Assembly (NCBI GenBank): GCA_965218205.1
Contig: OZ244590.1
Location: 840,857-904,856, forward strand
Source of the DNA: Spirochaetia bacterium
GTDB lineage: Bacteria; Spirochaetota; Spirochaetia; WTKD01; G963693115
Reading direction: 5' to 3'
Length of the DNA: 64,000 nt
Every line of letters starts with the position of its first letter. Position 1 is the stretch's first letter. A program made the translations under genes and the position numbers. Shown here piece after piece: positions 48,225 to 61,724 of this stretch. The notes under the pieces are model-generated. The model saw nothing but the letters and a program-made list of their open reading frames with translations. It made no database searches and was not told where the DNA came from.

Positions 48225-49721
48225 TTATTTATAGTTTCGTGGGTTTATAGCATATTTATTGATACGCAATCCTAGTTGGCGTTCTGTTAATTGTAAAAGC
48301 AAGGCTGCTTGCTTTATGTTTCCTCGTGAGCTTTTTAAGGCATCAATAATTAAATCGGTTTCTACTTGGGAAATTTTTATATGAAAACTTTCTGTAGTAT
48401 TGGTATTGGAGCTTTCTGCACTTTGTAAGCTAGGAGGAAGGAGGTGAGCATGGATGACTCCGCTTTCACAGGATCTGTAGGCATAGTTGATGACTTGTTG
48501 TAGCTCGCTTACATTTCCAGGCCAATGGTACGAAGTCAATAAATTGATAGCAGGGGTAGAGATACGTTTGATATTTTTTTTGAATCGTTTGTTTTCATTG
48601 TTTAAGAAATGGTTCATAAAAATTACAATATCATTTTTTCGTTTTCTCAGTGGAGGCACAGTAACCTTGTTTTGAATAAGCAAAGCATATAATTGTTCAT
48701 CAATCAAAGCATTGTCTTTAAGGACAGAGATAGTATCGGAGCTAGTAAAAACACAGCGAGTTTTTAGCGGTTCTATTGAATTATGAATAGCATATTCTTT
48801 ATTGAACAAAATTTGTATAATATGTTTTTGTAATACTAGGGGAAGTAATGTAAATTCTTCTATGATAAGGGTTGAATTTTGTGCTTGATGTAACGCTGTA
48901 TTAAATTCCTTCTCTAGTTCTTTAGGAGGCTTGTTATCGGACTTATAACAGTAATAGCTGATAGGAGCGAGTGTTTTTCGATTACTTGCGTAATGGATAG
49001 CATGTGCAAAAAAAGTCTTGCCACTGCCTTCTTCTCCGTATATCAGAATATGAGTATCAAGTTTGCTTATTTTGTATATTTCCATCTTAAAGTCTTTTAT
49101 TATGCCTGAATTGCCTAGTAAATTTTCTATTCTTAATTGAGAGTTTTCATGGGTAAGAAAGGGAGTTTCGTCTATTGATTGTAATTTTGTAAGGCGTCTC
49201 ACTACTGCTGGAGCAATAAGGAAAGAGAGTACTTTTAGCTTATTAGCAATGCCAAGCAATTTTGTCATACTTTGTTTTGGGGGAGTAATGCTAATAGTGC
49301 CAAGAATTTTTTGTTGATACAATATAGGGATACAGATAAATGCAAGTTGAGATAGCCGATTTCCGCGTTGCTTTGTTTTTTCTAAAAAGCGTTTCTCTTG
49401 GGATATGTCAGGGATAATCATTACTTGTTTTGATTGTACTACCTGTCCAATAATACCTTCTCCTGTTTTGTATTGTCCTTTCATTTTTTCTTCTGCTGAG
49501 AGCCCATAGGAAGAATCGATATAAATTTCTTCTTTTTGTTGATCATATATGGTGATAGCACCATCTTCAATCTCAAAGTAATCTGCGACAATCATAAAAA
49601 TAGGATTGAGTGTATCTTCAAGATTAATGTTGCTTTCCAATAAGTAACATATATCCATAAAGAGATTTAATTCTGTATTGTTGTCATCTGTTAAGGTTTC
49701 TTGAAAATTGTGTATTGTCAT
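48225..49721 (-). CDS. AAA+ enhancer-binding-protein-like transcriptional regulator (sigma-54-activator fold) that lacks the GAFTGA loop.
   Basis: GAF-like N-terminus, Walker A GEEGSGKTF, Walker-B-like IIEEF, and a C-terminal Fis-type HTH (GNIKQAALLLQLTERQLGLRINKY). The ESELFGH...GAFTGA segment is absent. Confidence 0.65.
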   Translation of the reverse strand: MTIHNFQETLTDDNNTELNLFMDICYLLESNINLEDTLNPIFMIVADYFEIEDGAITIYDQQKEEIYIDSSYGLSAEEKMKGQYKTGEGIIGQVVQSKQVMIIPDISQEKRFLEKTKQRGNRLSQLAFICIPILYQQKILGTISITPPKQSMTKLLGIANKLKVLSFLIAPAVVRRLTKLQSIDETPFLTHENSQLRIENLLGNSGIIKDFKMEIYKISKLDTHILIYGEEGSGKTFFAHAIHYASNRKTLAPISYYCYKSDNKPPKELEKEFNTALHQAQNSTLIIEEFTLLPLVLQKHIIQILFNKEYAIHNSIEPLKTRCVFTSSDTISVLKDNALIDEQLYALLIQNKVTVPPLRKRKNDIVIFMNHFLNNENKRFKKNIKRISTPAINLLTSYHWPGNVSELQQVINYAYRSCESGVIHAHLLPPSLQSAESSNTNTTESFHIKISQVETDLIIDALKSSRGNIKQAALLLQLTERQLGLRINKYAINPRNYK

Positions 49722-51493
49722 GGTTCATATGCATATAGTTCTTTGCCCGATATAATAATTTCTTTGCCATCAGGAATATCAGTAAATATTAATTTATTAG
49801 TTTGTACTAATATAGCAGTATTAGGAGCATACTTTTGTAATGTCTCTATGGGAACTTCTACTGGCATTTCTATCACTATCCCTGCAATTTCTGATAGTAC
49901 TGTAATTATTTGAAAATTCAATTTTTTAATGAAGTAGATATATTTTTCATTTTTGTTGCTATTTTCATCTTTGTGTTGAATGAGCTGCTGAGGGGTTTGT
50001 ACATGTACTATTTTTCCATGTATGGCTGGTCCTATACCAAATCTAGCACGTAGTATTATTTTTCCTTCAAAATGTATTTGTACTGTATTAAGCTGAAATG
50101 GTTTATTCATGGGAAAGCCACCAATAATAACGATTTTTTCATTTTTCTTGATGAGCTTTTTGGCGCGTATTTGTTCGATAACATCTTCGGGAGTATTGTT
50201 TGCGACATGTTTACTAATTAAAATTGGCTTTACTCCCCATAACAGATTGAGTTTTTTATAAATACGATGACTTGTAGTGGGGGCGATAATGGGCTGTTTT
50301 GGTCGTGTACATGCCATAATTCTAGGGGTGTTTCCTGAAGATGTTGGACATGCAAACATAGTAGCGTTTGATTTATCTGCCACCACCTGTGCAGCAGAAA
50401 CAAAGGTTTCGCTTGCAGAATCTCCAGTGCTTGTGTGTGTTTCTGTAAATTTTTGGCGAATATGAGTACTGAATAAACTGGATTTTTCTACTGCTAAGGC
50501 TACATTGTTCATTACCGTAATGGCTTCTACAGGATACTTTCCTTTTGCTGTTTCTCCCGAAAGCATAATGGCATCAGTTCCATCAAAAATAGCATTTGCT
50601 ACATCAGTAAGCTCTGCCCGTGTAGGAGCATTTGAATTTTCCATAGACTGTAGCATCTGCGTAGCAGTGATAACAATTTTTCTGAGTGCGTTGCATTGCG
50701 ATATAATATCTTTTTGTATCAGAGGGATAGTCTCTGCAGGCACTTGTTCTGCAAGATCCCCTCGTGCTATCATAATGCCATCAGCTACTTGGATAATGCT
50801 TTTTAAGTTATCAAGGCCTTCTTGGTTTTCTATTTTTGCAATGATGTGTATATCACTGCCATACTCTAGCAGTATTTCTCGTATTTCTTGAATATCTTCG
50901 GAGCTTCTAATAAAAGATGCTGCAATGTAATCAAAGTCATGCTGTACCGCAAACTTTATGTCTTCAATATCTTTTGCTGAAATGCTTGGTAATTGAAGAT
51001 GTGCTTCGGGAATATTGACATTTTTTTTGCTGCCGAGCAAGCCTCCATCGATGATGTCTGCTGTAATAATTTCTTCTTGTATATCTTTTATTCTAAGATG
51101 TATAGAGCCATCTGCAATTTTTATATTCATCCCTTTTTTTACTTCATTGTGTATACGAGCATACGAAAGGGCAATACATTTTGCGGTGCTTATGGTTTGT
51201 TTTCCTGACAGCATGATTGTCTTTCCTGTTTTAAGCTCTATAGGTTCGCCCTCTACAATACCAGTACGTACTTCGGGACCTTTTGTGTCAAGTAAATATA
51301 CTGAATCAATACCAGTTTTCTTTTCGGCTTCTTGCAGTAATGTAAGTCGCTCCAAGTGTTCTTTGTGATCACCGTGGCTGAAATTGAAACGTGCACAATT
51401 CATTCCTGCTTTTAGCATGTTCATGATAGTGTTGGTATCATGACATCCAGGTCCTAATGTTGCAATAATTTTTGTTCTTTTATAAGATTCCAT
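49718..51493 (-). CDS. pyk: Pyruvate kinase with a C-terminal PEP-utilising-enzyme mobile domain.
   Basis: N-terminus MESYKRTKIIATLGPG; the ORF track starts 29 codons upstream at 51580. Also K+/Mg2+ site motifs and a C-terminal PEP-utilisers domain (ISEIAGIVIEMP...). Confidence 0.85.
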   Translation of the reverse strand: MESYKRTKIIATLGPGCHDTNTIMNMLKAGMNCARFNFSHGDHKEHLERLTLLQEAEKKTGIDSVYLLDTKGPEVRTGIVEGEPIELKTGKTIMLSGKQTISTAKCIALSYARIHNEVKKGMNIKIADGSIHLRIKDIQEEIITADIIDGGLLGSKKNVNIPEAHLQLPSISAKDIEDIKFAVQHDFDYIAASFIRSSEDIQEIREILLEYGSDIHIIAKIENQEGLDNLKSIIQVADGIMIARGDLAEQVPAETIPLIQKDIISQCNALRKIVITATQMLQSMENSNAPTRAELTDVANAIFDGTDAIMLSGETAKGKYPVEAITVMNNVALAVEKSSLFSTHIRQKFTETHTSTGDSASETFVSAAQVVADKSNATMFACPTSSGNTPRIMACTRPKQPIIAPTTSHRIYKKLNLLWGVKPILISKHVANNTPEDVIEQIRAKKLIKKNEKIVIIGGFPMNKPFQLNTVQIHFEGKIILRARFGIGPAIHGKIVHVQTPQQLIQHKDENSNKNEKYIYFIKKLNFQIITVLSEIAGIVIEMPVEVPIETLQKYAPNTAILVQTNKLIFTDIPDGKEIIISGKELYAYEP

Positions 51494-51615
51494 ATTTCTA
51501 TTATAGAGCATTTTTGAATTATAGAAAAATAAAGGACTGGCATAGCAGAACCCGTGATTAATTTGAAATGCTATTTTCATAATTCCAAAAATAGAATAAA
51601 TGGTATAATAAGGCT

Positions 51616-51891
51616 ATGTCATATCAAGAAGAATTGAAAAAGGTAATAGAAGAATATCACAGTGCAAAGGAAGTATTTGAACGATTGCACAACAAAAAAT
51701 ATGAAGGCATATACAATCAAGAAGAATACGAAAAAGCAAGAGCAAAGGCATATGAAATGGCACAAAAAGCATATGACATAGGAAAAAAAGCATATGATGA
51801 AGGATATTATATGCATAAACAAGAATTTCAAGAAGTATTATCAGCATTAAAATCAGAATTAGATTATTATAATAATAGAAATAAGAAATAA
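51616..51891 (+). CDS. Hypothetical small coiled-coil protein (91 aa).
   Basis: ORF with a K/E/Y-rich helical repeat (KAYEMAQKAYDIGKKAYDEGYY); it heads the AT-rich cassette. Confidence 0.4.
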   Translation: MSYQEELKKVIEEYHSAKEVFERLHNKKYEGIYNQEEYEKARAKAYEMAQKAYDIGKKAYDEGYYMHKQEFQEVLSALKSELDYYNNRNKK

Positions 51892-51937
51892 TGTTTATAC
51901 TAATGCTAAAATATAAGAAATTATTTTAGGAGATTTA

Positions 51938-52954
51938 ATGAGTGAAATTAAAACACAAATTATAAAAGTAAATATTAAAAAATTATTTCTGGATGCAAAA
52001 AATCCACGTTTTCCTATTTCTTTTGAGACTAAATCTCAAGATGAAATATGGGAATGTATGAGTAGAGCTTTTAGGCTTGAAGAATTAGCTCTTTCAATGG
52101 TTGAGAATGGATATTTTGAAATTGAACCTATGGCAGTAATTCCAAAAAAAGAAATTTCCACTCAGAAAGAATATGATACATATAAAGTATCTGATAATGA
52201 GTTTATTGTTGTTGATGGTAATAGAAGGTTATCTGCTATAAGAGGGCTTATTGATAAAAAATTTCCTGATATAAAGATAACAGAGGATTTACAGAAACAA
52301 TTTGAAGATGGTGTTCCTGTACTATTTTATGCTAAGAGAGATGATATTTTGTCATTCTTAGGAGTGCATCATCTTGCTGGAGTAAGAAGTTGGGATATAT
52401 ATGATCGTGCAAGGTATATAGTGCATTTAAAAAGAGAAAAAGGTAAAACATTATCACAAATTCAAGATATGATAGGAAATGATACGAACTTACCAATAAA
52501 ATTGTATGTATCTTATCGACTGATTGAAATATTGAAAGAACATGATGATAATTTTGATGATAAGAGTGCCAAAGACAATTTCTCTTTTTTGACATTAGCA
52601 CTAAGTAAGCCAGAAATAAGAGCATATATCGGTTTACAAGCATGGCAAAAATTATCTGATAGTGAAGTTGAAAATCCCATTGCCTCTGAAAATCGAGAAA
52701 AATTAAGTAATTTATTCAGATACATATTTGACTATAATAGCGATACAAAACGTATAATAAGGGAATCTCGTGATATTGATACATTGTCTACAATTTTTTC
52801 TTCTGATGAAGGGATAAATCGTTTACTAGAACATAAAGATATTGATGAGGCATATGAAATAAGTATAGATGAAACTTGGCCTCTAAAAAATATAATGAAT
52901 AGTCTTTCTCTACTATATTTTTATAGTTCAGGAGGAAATAAAAAAATTATATGA
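51938..52954 (+). CDS. ParB/Srx-fold (DUF262-like) domain protein.
   Basis: NIKKLFLDAKNPRF and FIVVDGNRRLSAIRGL resemble the ParB N-terminal domain and the DGQQR motif of DUF262 (the GmrSD N-domain). The coding DNA is very AT-rich. Confidence 0.55.
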   Translation: MSEIKTQIIKVNIKKLFLDAKNPRFPISFETKSQDEIWECMSRAFRLEELALSMVENGYFEIEPMAVIPKKEISTQKEYDTYKVSDNEFIVVDGNRRLSAIRGLIDKKFPDIKITEDLQKQFEDGVPVLFYAKRDDILSFLGVHHLAGVRSWDIYDRARYIVHLKREKGKTLSQIQDMIGNDTNLPIKLYVSYRLIEILKEHDDNFDDKSAKDNFSFLTLALSKPEIRAYIGLQAWQKLSDSEVENPIASENREKLSNLFRYIFDYNSDTKRIIRESRDIDTLSTIFSSDEGINRLLEHKDIDEAYEISIDETWPLKNIMNSLSLLYFYSSGGNKKII

Positions 52955-52958
52955 ATGG

Positions 52959-53768
52959 ATGAACATGAAAAACAATGCAAAAGCAAAAGCAAAACTAGAA
53001 AAAGAATTATTACAGAAAAAGAGAATATCTAAGCAAGATATAGTAGCTTATTGGAGAGATTTAGGAAATGAAGATGATAGTATTGATAGTGAGGTTGATG
53101 ATGATATTAATAGATATAAGGAATTGTTTGATATTTACGGAGAAACTGTTTTTACATGGGATGATGAAACAAAGGCTATATCTCTCCATAAAGATTTTAA
53201 AGCAATAGAAGAATATCTATATTGCTTAGCATGTCATTTATTAACAGAAGAAGAAAAGGAGAAGGCTATAGGGAAAAATAAATTTTGTTTTGAAAAAATT
53301 GTTGGAGAGGTATTAAAAGTATTATTCGGAAAAGATTCACATTATGAGATTACTGATGCTCATAATACCCCCTCAATTAAAGATATAGCAGAAAAAATGA
53401 ATGAAGAATTTGTACAAGAAATCGAAAAAGGAAAAGATGCTGCTTGTGATATTGTATTTTGGAAATGTATTGAAAAATCTTTAGGGAGTAATATAATAGT
53501 ATTGGCTCAATGTAAGACAGGAAATAATTGGAAAGACGGTAAAAGTGTATATGTTGATTTTTGGAGAACTTTGATAATTTTTTCTATACCTCCAATAAAA
53601 GCATTTGCTATTACTGATTTAGTAGTAGACAGAAAAGATATAAGAAGATGTACAAAACAAAGAGGTTTATTTTTGGATAGGGCAAGTATTATAAAGATTC
53701 TCTCAAATCAGGATAATGAGGGATTACAGAATATTCGGGCAGATATATCTCAATTAGAGTTAGGATAA
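52959..53768 (+). CDS. Putative PD-(D/E)xK restriction-endonuclease-like protein (Mrr-cat-like C-terminal domain).
   Basis: The C-terminal AACDIVFWK...NIIVLAQCKTGNNW matches the D...(Q/E)xK catalytic arrangement of Mrr_cat (DGGIDii...vQcK). The start is 4 nt after the upstream stop. Confidence 0.5.
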   Translation: MNMKNNAKAKAKLEKELLQKKRISKQDIVAYWRDLGNEDDSIDSEVDDDINRYKELFDIYGETVFTWDDETKAISLHKDFKAIEEYLYCLACHLLTEEEKEKAIGKNKFCFEKIVGEVLKVLFGKDSHYEITDAHNTPSIKDIAEKMNEEFVQEIEKGKDAACDIVFWKCIEKSLGSNIIVLAQCKTGNNWKDGKSVYVDFWRTLIIFSIPPIKAFAITDLVVDRKDIRRCTKQRGLFLDRASIIKILSNQDNEGLQNIRADISQLELG

Positions 53769-53832: not shown

Positions 53833-54111
53833 TTATGACTCAATAGCTTCATCTAAGCGAGAGATGAGTTTAGATGCAGAATAGGCAGTATCATTGCTCA
53901 GTTCTACATTGAATTTTTTCTCATCAAGCAATTCATGGGAGAGGAGCAGAGATACCATAATAGATAATTTAAGAGGATCAGAACAATCAATTTCGCTTTG
54001 TATGCTCTGCATTCTTGCTTCAATTATTTCACATAATTGCTGTATGTAAGCACTGCTTTCGTCACTATGTAAGATAAAGGAAGTTCCAAATAAATTAACT
54101 CTTGTTTTCAT
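53833..54111 (-). CDS. zapA: Cell-division protein ZapA.
   Basis: A 92-aa protein with the ZapA pattern (VNLFGTSFIL...YIQQLCEIIEARMQ...LSIMVSLLLSHEL). Confidence 0.55.
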   Translation of the reverse strand: MKTRVNLFGTSFILHSDESSAYIQQLCEIIEARMQSIQSEIDCSDPLKLSIMVSLLLSHELLDEKKFNVELSNDTAYSASKLISRLDEAIES

Positions 54112-54130: not shown

Positions 54131-54841
54131 CTAGAGAATTTCTAGTTTAGTATGTTCTTCCTCTTTTCTGTCTGAGAGAGGATCAAAGTCGCTTGCAAAA
54201 TCAATTTCATCAATGTTTATATCATTATCATTGTGAAACATATTATCTTCATCATGAAAAGAATCACCAATATCTAGCGAGGTATCGCCCATAGATGAAT
54301 TAAGTGAATCATTCATAGTATCATCTGATACAAAAATTGTGTCACCTTCATCGTGTGATGAGCCTGAAGCAACAGCACTGTTTGTAGAAGTATGCTCTGC
54401 ACTCTGTGTAGGAGTATTCGTATCCGTATTGCTACGAGATGTTGGCACTGTGTTATCGGTAGGGGTATGACTTTCTTTCGCTTTTGTACTGGAATTGTTA
54501 CTGTTGTCTACGGTAGCAGAGGGCTGTGTTTGTGTGCCTGTAAAATCTACGCCATTTTGAAGCTCTTCAATAGTTTCAAAGTTGCTTATGGCATTTACGA
54601 CACTTTTTTCGAGATTAGATTGCTCTTTTTGGGCAGAATCTACTAGCTTTTCTAATTCTAGTACACGTTCTTCGTATTCGTCAAGTTGTCCCTGAATCGT
54701 TTCTTCATACTCTTGAAACTTTTTCTGCATTTGTTCTTTCTCTAAGGATATTTGTGTTATTCTTTGTTTTAGTTGTTGAATAAGATCAATAGCAGCTTCC
54801 ACTTTTGTTTCTAGCTTAAAGATAATTTGCTTAGGACTCAT
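54131..54841 (-). CDS. Coiled-coil protein with a Ser/Thr/Asn-rich linker and an acidic C-terminus (hypothetical, possibly division-associated).
   Basis: N-terminal coiled coil (QLKQRITQISLEKEQMQKKFQEYEETIQGQLDEYEERVLELEK) immediately upstream of zapA on the same strand. Confidence 0.4.
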   Translation of the reverse strand: MSPKQIIFKLETKVEAAIDLIQQLKQRITQISLEKEQMQKKFQEYEETIQGQLDEYEERVLELEKLVDSAQKEQSNLEKSVVNAISNFETIEELQNGVDFTGTQTQPSATVDNSNNSSTKAKESHTPTDNTVPTSRSNTDTNTPTQSAEHTSTNSAVASGSSHDEGDTIFVSDDTMNDSLNSSMGDTSLDIGDSFHDEDNMFHNDNDINIDEIDFASDFDPLSDRKEEEHTKLEIL

Positions 54842-55629: not shown

Positions 55630-58044
55630 ATGGCAGAAAGTAAAAGCATAGGACAATTACAAAAAGACGCAGAGCAATTTTTTAAGGATAAAAAATATGA
55701 TAAATGTATAGAGGTTTGTACAAAGATTATTAGTAGGGATGATGCAACAGAAGCTGATAAAGCAAGTGCGTATTTTAACAGAGGAAAAGCGAAAGATAGA
55801 CAAGGAAAGTATGAAGAAGCGATAGCTGATTATGATAAAGCGATAAAGTTATATCATTTTTTTGTTCCATATAAAACTCCTTATACTCTAGCTGATTACG
55901 ACAAAGTGATAAAGTTATATCCAAAATATGTAAATGCATACATCAACAGAGGAAACACAAAAGATAGGCAAGGAAAATATGAAGAAGCAATAAAAGATTA
56001 TGACAAAGCAATAGAGCTAGATCCACAAAATGCAATAGCATACAGTAATAGAGGACTTATGGAAGATAGGCAAAGAAGGTATAGAAAAGCGATAGCTTAT
56101 TACACTACAGCGATAGAGAAAGATCCAAAATATGTAAATGCATACATCAACAGAGGAATTACGAAACGGAAACGAAAAAAATATAAAGAAGCGATAGCTG
56201 ATTACACTACAGCGATAGAGCTAGATCCAAAATATGTAAATGCATACATCAACAGAGGAAATGCAAAATATAGTCAAGGAAAATATGAAGAAGCAATAAA
56301 AGATTATAACAAAGCAATAAAGCTAGATGAACAAAATGAAACAGCATACAACAACAGAGGCAATGCAAAATATAGTCAAAAAAATTATAAAGAAGCGATA
56401 AAAGATTATGATAAAGCGATAGATTTAGATTCAAAATATACAACAGCATATATAAACGGAGGAAATGCACAATATAGGCAAGAAGATTATAAGAAGGCGG
56501 AGGATTACTACACTAGAGCGATAAATACAAATAAAAAAAATGCAACATTATACAACAGCAGAGGAAATGCGAAATATAAACAAAAAAATTATAAAAAAGC
56601 GATAAAAGAATATGACAAAGCGATAAAGAAAAATCCAAAATATGTAGAAGCATATTACAATAAAGGTTATACAAATTTTATGCTAGGAAATTATGAGGAG
56701 GCGATAAAAGATTACGATGAAGCGATAGGTATAGATGGAAAAAAAGCAGAAGCACACTATTATAAAGGAACTGCGAATTTTATGTTAGGAAATTATGAGG
56801 AAGCGATAGATGATTATGATAAAGCGAAAAAGTGTAAAGAAGATTTTGCATCAGCAAAAGCCGATTATTCCATATTAAAATATTTATTATATACTAAAAG
56901 TGATGATTCAAAAGTATCAAAGGTATCAAAGTTTATTGAGAACTTGAATAAGGCCTTACGAATAGGTATAGCTGAAAAGTATAAGGAATCTAATATTAGT
57001 GATAATAAAAAATATTGTAATAAAAAATATATATTTTGTATATTTCAAAATGTAGTAAAGATATTAGATGAGTTAAAAGTAAAAGTAAATAAGAAGAGCA
57101 ATAAAGAAGAGTATCTTTCGCATACTACTCGTTTATCTGTATTGAAACAGCTTTTACCCATACCACCCACTCAAAAAGAAGATCTGTCCTCCCAAAGTGT
57201 AGCTTCAATATTTCGATTGTACCATATTGTGTATTCAAATGATCCGACTGAAGGAAAGATTCTCTTTAAGAAATTAAGTATTGACGATGAAACAGAAATC
57301 CCTTTCTATGTAATGATAGCGAGCTTTTCTAAAGGTGTCATCTCAGGTGATGACTTCTCAGAATTAGATACTATTCCTATATGGCACATGTATGGAGATG
57401 ATGCAAAAGGGATATCTCTATTATTTAAGACAACAGATATAGCCTCTGATGAAACAAGACATATTGGTAACCCTGTACAGAATTTGAATATATTAGAACA
57501 AGATCATACACAGGATATTGATGGTTCTGAAGTTAAGAGAGTATTGGAAAATATACACCAGATACAAAATATAGATGACAATCCTCTTTTGAAGCCAATA
57601 CTCTATAAGGTTCATTATACTGATGTAAAAAAACCTCTAAAGGATAGCGACAAAGGAAAAATAGTTGGTTATCTCAGAGATATACAAAATAGGCTTAAAG
57701 AGATAGAAAAAAAGGAAGACGAGAAGATATACAAAAAAACTTTAGAATTATTATCTGGATTGAGGTATCTTATTAAGGATAAGAGATATGAATATGAAAA
57801 TGAATATCGCTTAGTGTGTTTTCTTACACTTGATAGTATACAATATGATGAAAAAGATCCTGAAAACGATGCAATAAACCGTATGTATGTAGAAGAGGAT
57901 ATCATAGCAAAATTGGATAGCATAATAGTAGGAGCTAAAGTTCCTCCAGCAAAAGTGCTTGAAATAAAATATTTACTAAGAAAGTGTGATAAGACTAAAG
58001 ACAGAAAAATTAAAGTAATTCCAAGCAGTATTCCCTACCGCTAA
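55630..58044 (+). CDS. TPR-repeat protein fused to a DUF2971-like C-terminal domain.
   Basis: About 12 tandem 34-aa TPR units (AYINRGNAKYSQGKYEEAIKDYDKAIELDPKYVNA), then a C-terminal domain with YSNDPTEG and IWHMYGDDAKG resembling the DUF2971 N-D-P-x-E and M-W-s-h-Y motifs. Confidence 0.55.
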   Translation: MAESKSIGQLQKDAEQFFKDKKYDKCIEVCTKIISRDDATEADKASAYFNRGKAKDRQGKYEEAIADYDKAIKLYHFFVPYKTPYTLADYDKVIKLYPKYVNAYINRGNTKDRQGKYEEAIKDYDKAIELDPQNAIAYSNRGLMEDRQRRYRKAIAYYTTAIEKDPKYVNAYINRGITKRKRKKYKEAIADYTTAIELDPKYVNAYINRGNAKYSQGKYEEAIKDYNKAIKLDEQNETAYNNRGNAKYSQKNYKEAIKDYDKAIDLDSKYTTAYINGGNAQYRQEDYKKAEDYYTRAINTNKKNATLYNSRGNAKYKQKNYKKAIKEYDKAIKKNPKYVEAYYNKGYTNFMLGNYEEAIKDYDEAIGIDGKKAEAHYYKGTANFMLGNYEEAIDDYDKAKKCKEDFASAKADYSILKYLLYTKSDDSKVSKVSKFIENLNKALRIGIAEKYKESNISDNKKYCNKKYIFCIFQNVVKILDELKVKVNKKSNKEEYLSHTTRLSVLKQLLPIPPTQKEDLSSQSVASIFRLYHIVYSNDPTEGKILFKKLSIDDETEIPFYVMIASFSKGVISGDDFSELDTIPIWHMYGDDAKGISLLFKTTDIASDETRHIGNPVQNLNILEQDHTQDIDGSEVKRVLENIHQIQNIDDNPLLKPILYKVHYTDVKKPLKDSDKGKIVGYLRDIQNRLKEIEKKEDEKIYKKTLELLSGLRYLIKDKRYEYENEYRLVCFLTLDSIQYDEKDPENDAINRMYVEEDIIAKLDSIIVGAKVPPAKVLEIKYLLRKCDKTKDRKIKVIPSSIPYR
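55690..56860 (+). repeat. Near-identical tandem ~102-bp DNA repeats (TPR units) within the CDS.
   Basis: Blocks such as CCAAAATATGTAAATGCATACATCAACAGAGGAAA recur at ~55921, ~56121 and ~56221 with very few mismatches. Confidence 0.8.
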
Positions 58045-59744: not shown

Positions 59745-60113
59745 CTAATTGTTCCCATGTAGGAGTATTATTAGAATTAGATAGAAGTTCAAATATGCAT
59801 TGAAATGTTAATTTTTTTGTAAAACTACCTTTGTTTTTCAATACATAAATAACAATCCCTCCAATAGAAGTAAGTATAAGGGAGCAAATAGAAAAATAAA
59901 AGTTATTACTTCGCAGTCTTCTATCGCTAGTATCCTCTGCTGTTTTTAAGTATATTTTGTATATTTCTAGTAAATGTTTTTGATATTTATCATTATCCAT
60001 ACCATAATTATATATCGTTTAGCAGTTTCCGTTACATTTTTGTTACAACATGCTTTACATATTTTTTATTCTATGGTATTATCTTATTATGGGAATAATA
60101 AAGGGGGACAGTA

Positions 60114-61724
60114 ATGATTATTCGCGGTATAGAATCTATTGGTGAGCAGGAAGGCACGCCGTCAGCACATGAGCAACATAGTCGAGAAGTAAATACAAGC
60201 CATACCCATGGAGCTTTTTCAGGAAACATGTCTGAAAGAGAAAATGGTGTCTCAGGCACATCACAAGGAGCAACTGCTCCTGCTAATACCATTGTAAATA
60301 ATAGCACTATTGATACCTCTGTGTCAAACTCCGAGTTATTTTATAAGAAACGCGTTATTGGGGGAATAGAGAGTGCATTTAGTCCCACAAAGATAGCCGT
60401 TATTGGTGTTGGTGGAGGCGGGGTAAATGCAGTAAGCAGTATGGTAGACTTAGAATTAGATGGCATAGACCTGTGGGCTGCAAATACCGATGCCCAAACC
60501 TTAAGCGACTGTCCCGTGAGTAATGTCATATTGCTTGGTTCTAAATCCTGTAATGGTCTCGGAGTAGGAGGAGATCCACAACGGGGAGCCGAAGCTGTGT
60601 ATGAGATGCAAGAGGATATTAGTGGCGTATTAAAAAACTATGACATGATATTTCTTGCCACAGGCTTAGGAGGAGGAACAGGCTCTGGAGCTATTCCTGT
60701 ACTTGCAAAAATAGCACGGGATAGTGGCGTACTTGTTGTCTCTATTGTTACTATGCCATTTCTCTACGAAGGACAGAAAAGACAAAGCAATGCCGAAAAC
60801 AGCTTGGAAGAACTAGAAGAATTTACAGACGCACTGATAATAGTGCCTAATAACAGCCTTATCACTACCAGTGCTTCTCGCTCTGATGTGTTTGTGGAAG
60901 ATAGCTTTCATACTGCCAATAAGATTTTATCAGATACCGTCAGCTCCATTACTAATATTCTCACAACAAGAGGACGTGTCAATATTGATTTTGCAGATAT
61001 TAAAAGCTGTATTCAAAATTCTGGTCTTATTTCGGTTGGCATTGGAGAATCGAATATTGAAGAAAGTCATGGAGGCAATGCTCACAGAGCCACTGAAATA
61101 GCCCTTACAAATAAATTGCTGTCCGAAGAGAACGCACAGGTACTCTCGTATGCGGACAATATTATTGTAAATGTTGTACTAGGAAAGAGCTGTCCTATGC
61201 ATGATTATGCCGCTATCACAGATATGATTATTTCACGTACCTCTGTTAAGCCAAGCAATATAAAAACAGGACATCGTTTTGAATCTACCTGGGACCATAA
61301 AGTGCAAGTTACCATCATTGCAGCATCCAGCTTAAAAAGTCATGGAAAAAAAATAGTCAATCCTAACAGAAGCATGAGCGATGCAAGGAGCATGTCCGTA
61401 CATGATACAAGTAGACATGCCACTGTCAATCATGTGCCTACCTCTGTAGCTCCAGCACATGATACTGTGTACTCACACGCGTACACTGAAGAACAAGCAG
61501 CACATAACAATAGTCCTCCATATCCCTACGATAGAGAAAAAAGAGACATCAGTTTACAAGGCATGTACGAAACCTCTGACTCAGATCAAAAATACATAGA
61601 CAGCGATGTGTTTCGTTCGTTGATAAATCAGCCCATGAGAGATGTCAATGAAATTTTACAGGAAGAACTTGACACAATGAAAAAGACAACACCAGTACAA
61701 CAGTATTCTGATATCATTCCATAA
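60114..61724 (+). CDS. ftsZ: Cell-division GTPase FtsZ with a ~95-aa N-terminal extension and a long C-terminal linker.
   Basis: Tubulin/FtsZ core: IAVIGVGGGGVNAV, NTDAQTL, the GGGTGSG signature, and T7-loop-like NIDFADIK. Confidence 0.9.
   Translation: MIIRGIESIGEQEGTPSAHEQHSREVNTSHTHGAFSGNMSERENGVSGTSQGATAPANTIVNNSTIDTSVSNSELFYKKRVIGGIESAFSPTKIAVIGVGGGGVNAVSSMVDLELDGIDLWAANTDAQTLSDCPVSNVILLGSKSCNGLGVGGDPQRGAEAVYEMQEDISGVLKNYDMIFLATGLGGGTGSGAIPVLAKIARDSGVLVVSIVTMPFLYEGQKRQSNAENSLEELEEFTDALIIVPNNSLITTSASRSDVFVEDSFHTANKILSDTVSSITNILTTRGRVNIDFADIKSCIQNSGLISVGIGESNIEESHGGNAHRATEIALTNKLLSEENAQVLSYADNIIVNVVLGKSCPMHDYAAITDMIISRTSVKPSNIKTGHRFESTWDHKVQVTIIAASSLKSHGKKIVNPNRSMSDARSMSVHDTSRHATVNHVPTSVAPAHDTVYSHAYTEEQAAHNNSPPYPYDREKRDISLQGMYETSDSDQKYIDSDVFRSLINQPMRDVNEILQEELDTMKKTTPVQQYSDIIP

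What the first reader, a model, noticed from the sequence alone, without database searches (positions are those of the whole stretch)
51616..53768. AT-rich cassette of a ParB/DUF262-like protein plus an Mrr-cat-like PD-(D/E)xK nuclease: candidate split type-IV-like restriction/defence module
Two tightly coupled genes (stop-to-start gap ~4 nt) sit between pyk and zapA, preceded by a small coiled-coil ORF. Their nucleotide composition is visibly more AT-rich than the flanking housekeeping genes. Gene 1 carries ParB/Srx-fold motifs (NPRF; VVDGNRRLSAI) reminiscent of the DGQQR NTP-binding motif of DUF262, the N-domain of GmrSD, BrxU and SspE type IV restriction enzymes. Gene 2 ends in a D...QCK arrangement matching the Mrr catalytic domain. 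A DUF262-like sensor/NTPase split from a PD-(D/E)xK rather than an HNH/DUF1524 nuclease is, to my knowledge, not a named system. Together with the compositional shift this makes it the strongest candidate in the window for an undescribed anti-phage or restriction module.
Basis: partly seen in the sequence, partly recalled or inferred. Interest (0 to 1): 0.78.

Follow-up and report, generated by a model that had tools for sequence, protein, structure and literature searches.

The report
ParB-like plus nuclease restriction pair, methylase-less
The two coupled genes are real and encode a ParB-fold DNA-binding protein and a restriction-type nuclease. The same pair sits beside a DNA methyltransferase in almost every other genome carrying it, so it looks like the cutting half of a widespread, unnamed restriction-modification system. 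This copy has no methyltransferase nearby.

Summary
Three + strand ORFs lie between pyk and zapA: g0 (91 aa), g1 (338 aa) and g2 (269 aa). They form the lowest-GC 2.15 kb of the window (28.3% vs 34.0±2.1%).

- **g2:** models as a winged helix plus a PD-(D/E)xK nuclease with E112…D164…Q184-C-K186. Best hits are AF1548, SdaI, NgoMIV and MspJI.
- **Annotation:** neither protein passes any Pfam or NCBIfam model.
- **Co-occurrence:** the pair is strictly conserved, in 77 of 77 testable genome loci and 78 of 80 viral loci.
- **Methyltransferase:** about 95% of those loci also carry an adjacent DNA methyltransferase, usually C5 and sometimes N4/N6.
- **E. coli:** the trio occurs in P2-like prophages of 104 of 5,426 complete genomes.

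The family therefore looks like an undescribed methylation-protected R-M-like module, not a type IV system. The window and its one sister genome lack the methyltransferase, yet both core domains show purifying selection (dN/dS 0.36 and 0.24). How this copy avoids cutting its own DNA is unresolved. The small upstream ORF is not part of the conserved module.

The parts
51616..51891 (+). g0: 91-aa K/E-rich helical ORF with KAY(D/E) repeats. It is lineage-specific and not part of the conserved module.
   Evidence: ORF. It is found only in the window and sister locus L001 among 82 genome loci. No significant family hit. dN/dS is about 1.2, but on only 7 differences.
51938..52954 (+). g1: ParB-fold protein, 338 aa. 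SD-like GGAG lies 6 nt before the ATG. The C-terminal tail is shortened relative to the family (about 372-395 aa).
51938..52342 (+). g1 ParB/Srx N-terminal (NTP-binding type) domain, residues about 1-135. Box I NPR is at 52001-52009. Box II D93-G-N-R96-R97 is at 52214-52228.
   Evidence: Invariant family columns D19, N22, P23, R24, G94, R96, R97. hhalign places VVEGNRRL on Spo0J IVAGERRF, but weakly. The window has D93 where more than 90% of members have E.
52397..52927 (+). g1 helix-turn-helix region (residues about 154-202) followed by an all-helical domain (about 208-330).
52959..53768 (+). g2: nuclease subunit, 269 aa, starting 4 nt after the g1 stop.
   Evidence: AF2 pLDDT 79.4, pTM 0.81. 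Family profile finds 3,219 representatives at 50% identity.
52959..53198 (+). g2 N-terminal winged-helix-like domain (residues about 1-80).
53271..53708 (+). g2 PD-(D/E)xK nuclease domain (residues about 105-250). Key residues: E112 (53292-53294), D164 (53448-53450), Q184-C-K186 (53508-53516), D240-R241 (53676-53681).

Best explanation
The cassette is the restriction half of a widespread, so far unnamed three-gene restriction-modification-like module. The module consists of a ParB-fold protein, a winged-helix PD-(D/E)xK nuclease and a DNA methyltransferase. This copy was acquired horizontally and sits between pyk and zapA without the methyltransferase.

Shown:
- g1 is a ParB-type N-domain with conserved NTP-pocket arginines, plus an HTH and a helical domain.
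- g2 is a winged helix plus a restriction-type nuclease with an E…D…QxK site.
- The two genes are translationally coupled and always adjacent across bacteria, archaea and prophages.
- A methyltransferase (C5, sometimes N4/N6) is adjacent in about 95% of relatives.

Inferred mechanism for the family:
- g1 and g2 form a complex.
- g1 binds DNA through its HTH and uses an NTP-dependent ParB-like switch to license or position g2.
- g2 cuts DNA that lacks the methyl mark written by the cognate methyltransferase.

Inferred for this window:
- The pair is still functional, because both core domains are under purifying selection.
- Self-protection must come from a methyltransferase encoded elsewhere in the 2.36-Mb genome, or from altered activity. 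This could not be tested.
For: - **Folds:**
- **Conserved motifs:**
- **Gene-pair conservation:** 77 of 77 testable genome loci, with gaps of -8 to +7 nt in most. Also 78 of 80 viral loci.
- **Methyltransferase linkage:** 75 of 79 genome loci, 67 of them directly adjacent. It is C5 PF00145 in most and N6_N4 PF01555 in L073, L074 and L081, where g1 and g2 are also divergent. Vsr is present in 15 loci. In viral loci 76 of 80 carry it.
- **Closest relatives:** L002, L004, L005, L085 and L086 all carry the C5 methyltransferase.
- **E. coli:** the trio lies in a P2-like prophage between the portal gene and replication gene A, in 104 of 5,426 genomes.
- **Horizontal origin:** lowest GC of the window, and relatives are also AT-richer than their hosts.
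- **Selection:** dN/dS against the sister genome is 0.36 for the g1 core (p=0.003) and 0.24 for the g2 nuclease domain (p=0.05). The window's departures from family consensus are mostly shared with its methyltransferase-bearing subclade.
Against: - No methyltransferase is present in the 64-kb window or in the 17-kb sister locus. An active unprotected restriction enzyme should be lethal.
- Constraint on the cassette is weaker than on the neighbours. Whole-gene dN/dS is 0.41-0.50 against 0.00-0.22.
- The g1 C-terminal tail carries lineage-specific deletions.
- R243, which is 97% conserved in g2, is S in this lineage.
- No experiment exists for any member of the family. NTP binding, complex formation, cleavage and methylation sensitivity are all inferred.
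Confidence: 0.6

Rival explanations
1. Decaying remnant. After the methyltransferase was lost, the pair survived only because the nuclease was already crippled. The ORFs are intact but on their way to pseudogenes.
For: - The methyltransferase is missing.
- Whole-gene dN/dS is raised (0.41-0.50).
- There are indels in the g1 tail and in the g2 N-terminal and linker regions.
- This lineage carries g2 R243S and g1 E93D.
- A solo g1 with g2 and the methyltransferase gone exists elsewhere (L087).
Against: - Both ORFs are intact in two genomes separated by dS of about 0.1.
- Core-domain dN/dS is 0.24-0.36, significantly below 1.
- All invariant catalytic and Box II residues are retained.
- Q184 is the family norm, not a knockout.
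- E93D is conservative.
Confidence: 0.2
2. One reading: a split type-IV-like, modification-dependent restriction system, with a ParB/DUF262-like sensor NTPase plus a PD-(D/E)xK nuclease that attacks modified foreign DNA and needs no methyltransferase.
For: - This copy has no methyltransferase.
- g1 gives a weak GmrSD_N hit (E 8e-4).
- The g2 nuclease domain resembles the type IV enzymes MspJI and AspBHI.
- The D…QxK motif is Mrr/MspJI-like (own knowledge).
Against: - About 95% of relatives, including all the closest ones, have an adjacent methyltransferase. A modification-dependent nuclease would be incompatible with that.
- The GmrSD_N hit is below threshold, and only 5 of 37 family members show it.
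- No modified-base reader domain such as SRA is seen.
Confidence: 0.1
3. Same R-M family, but g1 is not part of the enzyme. It would be a ParB/KorB/DndB-like transcriptional controller of the operon, analogous to a C-protein, and g2 alone would be the restriction endonuclease.
For: - g1 has an HTH and resembles the repressor KorB.
- DndB is a ParB-superfamily protein in the DndABCDE system (cited in PMC12065111).
- g2 already has its own winged helix for DNA binding.
Against: - g1 is large (about 380 aa).
- It retains invariant NTP-pocket residues across phyla.
- It overlaps or abuts g2, suggesting stoichiometric co-translation.
- It is never lost from the pair in 155 loci.
Confidence: 0.2
4. 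Domesticated chromosome-biology function. The pair would be a Noc/ParB-like DNA-binding protein with a partner nuclease acting with the neighbouring division genes (zapA, a ZapB-like gene, ftsZ).
For: The cassette sits beside zapA, a ZapB-like gene and ftsZ. It is kept at the same site under purifying selection in two genomes.
Against: - Its GC3 is foreign.
- There is no ParA or parS.
- Relatives sit in unrelated contexts and in prophages, always with a methyltransferase.
- Only two genomes share this position.
Confidence: 0.05

Closest known systems
GmrSD / BrxU / SspE (type IV and related enzymes: DUF262 ParB-superfamily NTPase plus DUF1524 His-Me nuclease)
   Same: A ParB/Srx-superfamily domain with an acid-G-x-x-R motif is coupled to a DNA nuclease in a defence setting. 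g1 gives a weak GmrSD_N similarity.
   Different: - The nuclease is a separate polypeptide.
- That nuclease is a winged-helix PD-(D/E)xK, not DUF1524/HNH.
- The family is methyltransferase-linked, implying methylation-blocked rather than modification-dependent cleavage.
PD-λ-5 (Vassallo et al. 2022, PMC9519451) and PADLOC candidate PDC-M38 (Payne et al. 2024 preprint, 10.1101/2024.01.29.577857)
   Same: The g1 N-domain matches the first ~160-175 positions of PD-Lambda-5_A models (E 2e-14). Residues 81-309 match PDC-M38A (E 8e-20). The PD-λ-5 authors describe it as a compacted prophage RM+Abi system containing a methyltransferase.
   Different: - Matches cover only part of the much longer PD-Lambda-5_A (428-578 positions) and PDC-M38A (715 positions) profiles.
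- g2 and its whole family hit no PADLOC model, including PD-Lambda-5_B and the REase models.
- PDC-M38 is an untested candidate.
SdaI, AF1548, NgoMIV, MspJI/Mrr-type PD-(D/E)xK restriction nucleases
   Same: The nuclease core has the same fold. SdaI also combines a winged helix with the nuclease domain. The active site follows an E…D…QxK pattern like the D…QxK variant of Mrr and MspJI (the Mrr/MspJI motif is own knowledge).
   Different: - There is no sequence-level relationship: no Pfam hit for 24 members and no PDB sequence hit.
- g2 always comes with an obligatory ParB-fold partner.
- In most of the family the lysine sits 8 positions further on (QCA…K).
ParB / KorB / Noc / PadC CTP-switch DNA clamps
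   Same: The N-domain fold, the Box I NPR and Box II GxRR motifs, and the following HTH are shared.
   Different: - There is no ParA partner and no detectable ParBc Pfam match.
- The C-terminal domain is a different helical domain.
- The partner is a nuclease and the context is a methyltransferase operon.
- The 2025 survey of the ParB-CTPase fold (PMC12704722) reports domain fusions to methyltransferases and HNH. This operon was not found in its main text.

Membership tests
GmrSD_N / DUF262 (PF03235) | Sequence match to the Pfam model at or above the gathering score | tested here: not met
   Score is 20.0 bits against a cut-off of 33.2, E 8e-4. Only 5 of 37 family members give even a sub-threshold hit.
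GmrSD_N / DUF262 (PF03235) | Structural similarity to solved DUF262 domains (SspE 6jiv, BrxU 7p9k) | tested here: inconclusive
   [not shown]
GmrSD-type type IV restriction | DUF1524/His-Me nuclease partner and no cognate methyltransferase (modification-dependent) | tested here: not met
   The partner is a PD-(D/E)xK fold. The family carries a methyltransferase in about 95% of loci.
ParB N-terminal domain (ParB/Srx superfamily) | ParB/Srx fold with Box I and the Box II GxxR arginine motif | tested here: met
   [not shown]
Chromosome/plasmid partition ParB | ParA partner, parS context, C-terminal dimerisation domain | tested here: not met
   [not shown]
ParB-type NTP (CTP) switch | Binds and hydrolyses an NTP | not testable with these tools
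   Only conservation of the P-motif arginines can be shown. Nucleotide specificity is reported as not predictable from sequence (PMC12704722, section heading seen).
PD-(D/E)xK nuclease superfamily | Alpha-beta-beta-beta-alpha-beta core with an acidic residue before strand 2 and (D/E/Q)xK on strand 3 | tested here: met
   Topology and residue placement. Restriction-enzyme structural matches. E112 and D164 are invariant and Q184 is present in 97% of members.
Mrr_cat (PF04471) | Sequence match to the Pfam model | tested here: not met
   No hit at E≤1 for g2 and none at E≤0.01 for 24 family members. There is only fold-level and motif-level resemblance.
Restriction-modification system (methylation-protected) | Nuclease genes genetically linked to a DNA methyltransferase | tested here: met
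   This holds for the family: 75 of 79 genome loci and 76 of 80 viral loci. The methyltransferase type swaps from C5 to N4/N6 in some loci. It does NOT hold for the window copy or its sister.
Restriction-modification system (methylation-protected) | Cleavage of unmodified DNA that is blocked by the cognate methylation | not testable with these tools
   This needs biochemistry or genetics. No published test of any family member was found.
PD-λ-5 | Both PD-Lambda-5_A and PD-Lambda-5_B present | tested here: not met
   Only the N-terminal ~160-175 residues of g1 match the A models. g2 matches nothing in PADLOC.

The most novel reading that the evidence does not exclude
The g1-g2-methyltransferase trio is a new class of restriction-modification system. 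In it a ParB-type nucleotide switch, rather than an ATP-driven motor or a simple dimer, couples site recognition to cleavage by a separate winged-helix PD-(D/E)xK nuclease. The switch might act as a DNA clamp that loads at unmethylated sites. The Spirochaetia copy would then be a derivative that is kept under selection and works without a linked methyltransferase.
Probability: 0.3. Interest if true: 0.8.

Novelty: new variant of a known kind. Interest (0 to 1): 0.62.

Why it matters
If the reading is right, a large family escapes the annotation resources tested here as a system. g2 relatives form about 3,200 clusters at 50% identity. g1 relatives occur in at least 452 species representatives and in 104 complete E. 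coli genomes. The genes appear only as 'ParB N-terminal domain protein', 'hypothetical protein' and what looks like an orphan Dcm-type methylase.

Recognising the trio would reclassify many apparent orphan C5 methyltransferases as parts of restriction systems. It would also add a ParB-fold nucleotide switch to the small set of devices that control restriction enzymes (type I/III motors, McrBC, GmrSD).

The E. coli P2-prophage version makes the idea directly testable in a standard host. The methyltransferase-less spirochaete copy, apparently under selection, raises a sharper question: how can a restriction nuclease pair persist without its linked antidote?

Tried and rejected
- **QCK as an inactivating E→Q change: rejected.** Q184 is the consensus in 73 of 75 family members. 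The window subclade instead has the lysine moved from aligned position 194 to 186.
- **g1 E93D as inactivation: rejected.** The change is conservative, and all other deviations are shared with methyltransferase-bearing relatives.
- **g0 as a conserved third component: rejected.** It is present only in the window and its sister.
- **Methyltransferase elsewhere in the window: none found.** This was checked by tblastn, motif scan and Pfam. The rest of the 2.36-Mb genome could not be reached.
- **Empty-site search: uninformative.**
  - The metagenome scan with ZapA found no relative.
  - The look-up with RplT found only the sister genome.
  - The time and mode of insertion therefore remain unknown.
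- **Mobile-element boundaries: none.** No tRNA, Rfam match, flanking direct repeat or terminator was found.
- **Sequence searches of the PDB with family profiles:** only noise.
- **hhalign of the g1 family against a Spo0J sequence typed from memory:** it aligned Box II and the HTH, but with negligible probability. It is used only as an illustration.
- **Tool failures:** The afdb50 fold library was unavailable.
- **Palindrome depletion:** GCGC 0.24, CCGG 0.25 and GGCC 0.38 of expectation, but many other palindromes are depleted too. It cannot be attributed to this cassette.
- **Literature searches:** PD-λ-5, PDC-M38, ParB plus restriction, and P2 hotspots were searched. No description of this trio was found. 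REBASE could not be consulted.
Full report
**1. What is in the window**

Three + strand ORFs lie between pyk (49718-51580, -) and zapA (53833-54111, -). They are g0 (51616-51891, 91 aa), g1 (51938-52954, 338 aa) and g2 (52959-53768, 269 aa).
- g1 has a GGAG Shine-Dalgarno sequence 6 nt upstream of its ATG.
- g2 starts 4 nt after the g1 stop.

The cassette is the most AT-rich 2.15 kb of the 64-kb window. Its GC is 28.3% against 34.0±2.1%, and GC3 is 15-17% against 25-28% in the neighbouring genes. No tRNA, Rfam match, terminator-like site or flanking direct repeat marks its edges. One related Spirochaetia MAG (L001 = L014) has the same three ORFs at the same pyk/zapA site.

**2. What the proteins are**

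No Pfam or NCBIfam model reaches threshold for any of the three.

*g1.* It gives only a sub-threshold GmrSD_N hit (20 bits against a cut-off of 33.2). Among 37 family members just 5 show such a hit. An AlphaFold2 model from a 37-sequence alignment (pLDDT 88.9) shows a ParB/Srx N-domain, an HTH region and a further helical domain.
- Family-invariant residues include N22-P23-R24 (Box I-like) and G94, R96, R97 (Box II, the phosphate-binding motif of ParB-fold NTPases).

*g2.* Its model (14-sequence alignment, pLDDT 79.4, pTM 0.81) has an N-terminal winged-helix-like domain and a C-terminal alpha-beta-beta-beta-alpha-beta core.
- Foldseek's only hit at E≤0.001 is MspJI (E 3.5e-4; other MspJI chains follow at 1.1e-3 to 3.5e-3).
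- E112 lies on the first core helix, D164 precedes strand 165-170, and Q184-C-K186 closes strand 178-186.
- E112, D164, G188, W191, D240 and R241 are invariant in 75 homologues, and Q184 is present in 73 of them.

Membership of DUF262 or Mrr_cat at the sequence level does not.

**3. The family and its context**

The word-indexed protein search found about 40 g1 relatives and only one g2 relative. That turned out to be a sensitivity limit of the index.
- A scan of one genome per species found 452 species with a g1 relative.
- In the 79 non-redundant loci fetched, a g2 homologue lies immediately downstream of g1 in 77. The other two are cut by contig ends. Gaps are mostly -8 to +7 nt.
- A profile of the g2 family finds 3,219 cluster representatives at 50% identity (2,741 at E≤1e-10). 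The 150 best listed are 242-345 aa and match over a single stretch.

The decisive extra fact is a third gene. A DNA methyltransferase is present in 75 of the 79 loci and directly adjacent in 67.
- It is a C5 cytosine methylase (PF00145) in most loci.
- It is an N6_N4 methylase (PF01555) in L073, L074 and L081, where g1 and g2 are also unusually divergent.
- Of the four loci without one, three are truncated contigs. Only L010 truly lacks it.
- A Vsr mismatch endonuclease, the usual companion of C5 methylases, follows in 15 loci.
- The window's closest relatives (45-50% identity: L002, L004, L005, L085, L086) all have the g1-g2-C5 methylase trio, often dropped among housekeeping genes.

In IMG/VR viral contigs, 78 of 80 loci have the pair and 76 of 80 have an adjacent methyltransferase. 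It is usually about 311 aa and convergent with the pair, and it was confirmed as C5 by Pfam in the three examples tested. The same trio occurs in 104 of 5,426 complete E. coli genomes.
- In the example inspected (NZ_CP033635.1) it lies in a P2-like prophage between the portal gene and replication gene A.
- RefSeq calls the genes 'ParB N-terminal domain-containing protein', 'hypothetical protein' and 'DNA cytosine methyltransferase'.
- Homology to the window proteins is clear. g1 is 27% identical (E 2e-36). The g2 family profile matches the E. coli protein with 97.9% hhalign probability.
- PHROGs holds both families as 'unknown function' (phrog_3694 and phrog_14650).

**4. Comparison with what is known**

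*PADLOC.* Only parts of g1 are matched.
- The N-domain matches PD-Lambda-5_A.
- Residues 81-309 match PDC-M38A.
- g2 and its relatives match nothing, including the REase models.

*Literature.*
- PD-λ-5 is described by its authors as a compacted prophage RM+Abi system containing a methyltransferase (PMC9519451).
- PDC-M38 is an untested candidate derived from 'guilt by embedding' (10.1101/2024.01.29.577857).
- A 2025 survey of the ParB-CTPase fold reports domain fusions to methyltransferases and HNH domains. A term search of its main text did not find this operon (PMC12704722).
- A 2025 analysis lists the known ParB-DUF262 defence systems as GmrSD, PD-T4-2, Dazbog, SspE and Menshen (PMC12065111). 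None is this trio.
- The P2/P4 hotspot paper does not mention it in its text (PMC9122126).
- I could not consult REBASE, so a prior putative entry there cannot be excluded.

**5. How the family most likely works**

A nuclease pair welded to a methyltransferase, with the methyltransferase type replaceable and a Vsr often attached, is the genetic signature of methylation-protected restriction.

I infer that g1 and g2 form the restriction enzyme. g2 supplies the catalytic PD-(D/E)xK site and a winged helix. g1 supplies an HTH and a ParB-type nucleotide switch that licenses or positions the nuclease. This is analogous in logic to McrB with McrC, or to the DUF262 domain with DUF1524 in GmrSD, but here the enzyme would read the absence of a mark. 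Only the folds, motifs and linkage are shown. Complex formation, NTP use and methylation sensitivity are inferred.

A within-model alternative is that g1 is merely a KorB/DndB-like regulator. The invariant NTP-pocket residues, the translational coupling and the fact that g1 is never lost argue against that, but do not exclude it.

**6. The copy in this window**

This copy, and its sister, have no methyltransferase. None is found in the 64 kb by tblastn, motif scan or Pfam, and none in the sister's 17 kb.

I first suspected decay, but most of the evidence points the other way.
- Q184 is the family norm, not a knockout. In the window's subclade the lysine has moved to position 186 (QCK) from aligned position 194 (QCA…K).
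- Nearly all the window's departures from family consensus are shared with its methyltransferase-bearing relatives L002, L004 and L005.
- Lineage-specific changes are few: g2 R243S and R175L, and g1 L25F, V66A, E93D, D181N and G311D.
- Against the sister genome (dS about 0.1), dN/dS is 0.36 for g1 residues 1-313 (p=0.003) and 0.24 for the g2 nuclease domain (p=0.05).

Signs of relaxation do exist.
- Whole-gene dN/dS is 0.41-0.50 against 0.00-0.22 for the neighbouring genes.
- The g1 C-terminal tail has different deletions in the two genomes.
- g2 has indels in its N-terminal and linker regions.
- A fully decayed example, a solo g1, exists elsewhere (L087).

My reading is that the pair is still functional. 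It is protected either by a methyltransferase elsewhere in the 2.36-Mb genome or by altered activity. A slow-decay remnant is the main rival. A switch to modification-dependent (type IV) action is possible but has no positive support.

g0 occurs only in this lineage and has no recognisable relatives. It is not part of the conserved module.

**7. Verdict**

It is wrong on the key functional label, because the family is methyltransferase-linked rather than type-IV-like.

The finding points to a widespread, apparently undescribed variant of restriction-modification with a ParB-fold subunit. An E. coli prophage representative makes it experimentally tractable. The window's copy is an unusual methyltransferase-less member whose self-protection is unexplained.

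Noticed in passing
g2 family alignment (window residues 186 and 194; L002, L004, L005 against the rest): The putative catalytic lysine appears to have migrated. Most members read Q-C-A … K (aligned position 194). The window's subclade mostly reads (Q/E)-C-K … G, while L005 reads Q-C-R and keeps K at 194. The swap looks compensatory.
   Followed up: partly
L168 = E. coli NZ_CP033635.1 4834893-4837931 (and 103 other complete E. coli genomes): The homologous trio (ParB N-terminal domain protein, hypothetical protein, convergent Dcm-type methylase) sits in a P2-like prophage between the portal gene and replication gene A. A DUF3850 gene lies next to it. PADLOC sees only the methylase, with best hits to DruM2 and MTase_II models.
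   Followed up: partly
[not shown]
   Followed up: no
L087 5001-6131: A solo g1 homologue (376 aa) with neither g2 nor the methylase. A 45-aa ORF stub follows it and an rve transposase gene lies nearby. This is an example of decay of the module.
   Followed up: no
window 55630-58044: An 804-aa protein with more than 10 TPR repeats and a C-terminal DUF2971 domain. It is also low in GC (30%). The sister genome's version is 696 aa, so the repeat number varies.
   Followed up: no
window 51493-51616: The mechanical pyk ORF extends 29 codons upstream of the likely start (MESYKRTKIIATLG). The sister genome's gene call (591 aa) uses that internal start. A perfect TATAAT at 51604-51609 ends 6 nt before the g0 ATG, so g0 could be translated from a leaderless or near-leaderless transcript.
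   Followed up: no
whole window: There is strong, general avoidance of short palindromes relative to Markov expectation. Ratios are GCGC 0.24, CCGG 0.25, GGCC 0.38, GATATC 0.24, AAGCTT 0.22, CAATTG 0.09 and GGTACC 0 of about 10 expected. This is consistent with long exposure to many type II systems and is not attributable to this cassette.
   Followed up: partly
window 54131-54841 and 60102-61724: The gene after zapA is a weak ZapB-like coiled coil (sub-threshold Pfam hit, E 3e-4) with a long low-complexity S/T/N/D-rich tail that differs by indels from the sister genome (236 against 229 aa). The FtsZ homologue is long; the open frame scanned was 540 aa and the tubulin domain starts at residue 97 of it.
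   Followed up: no
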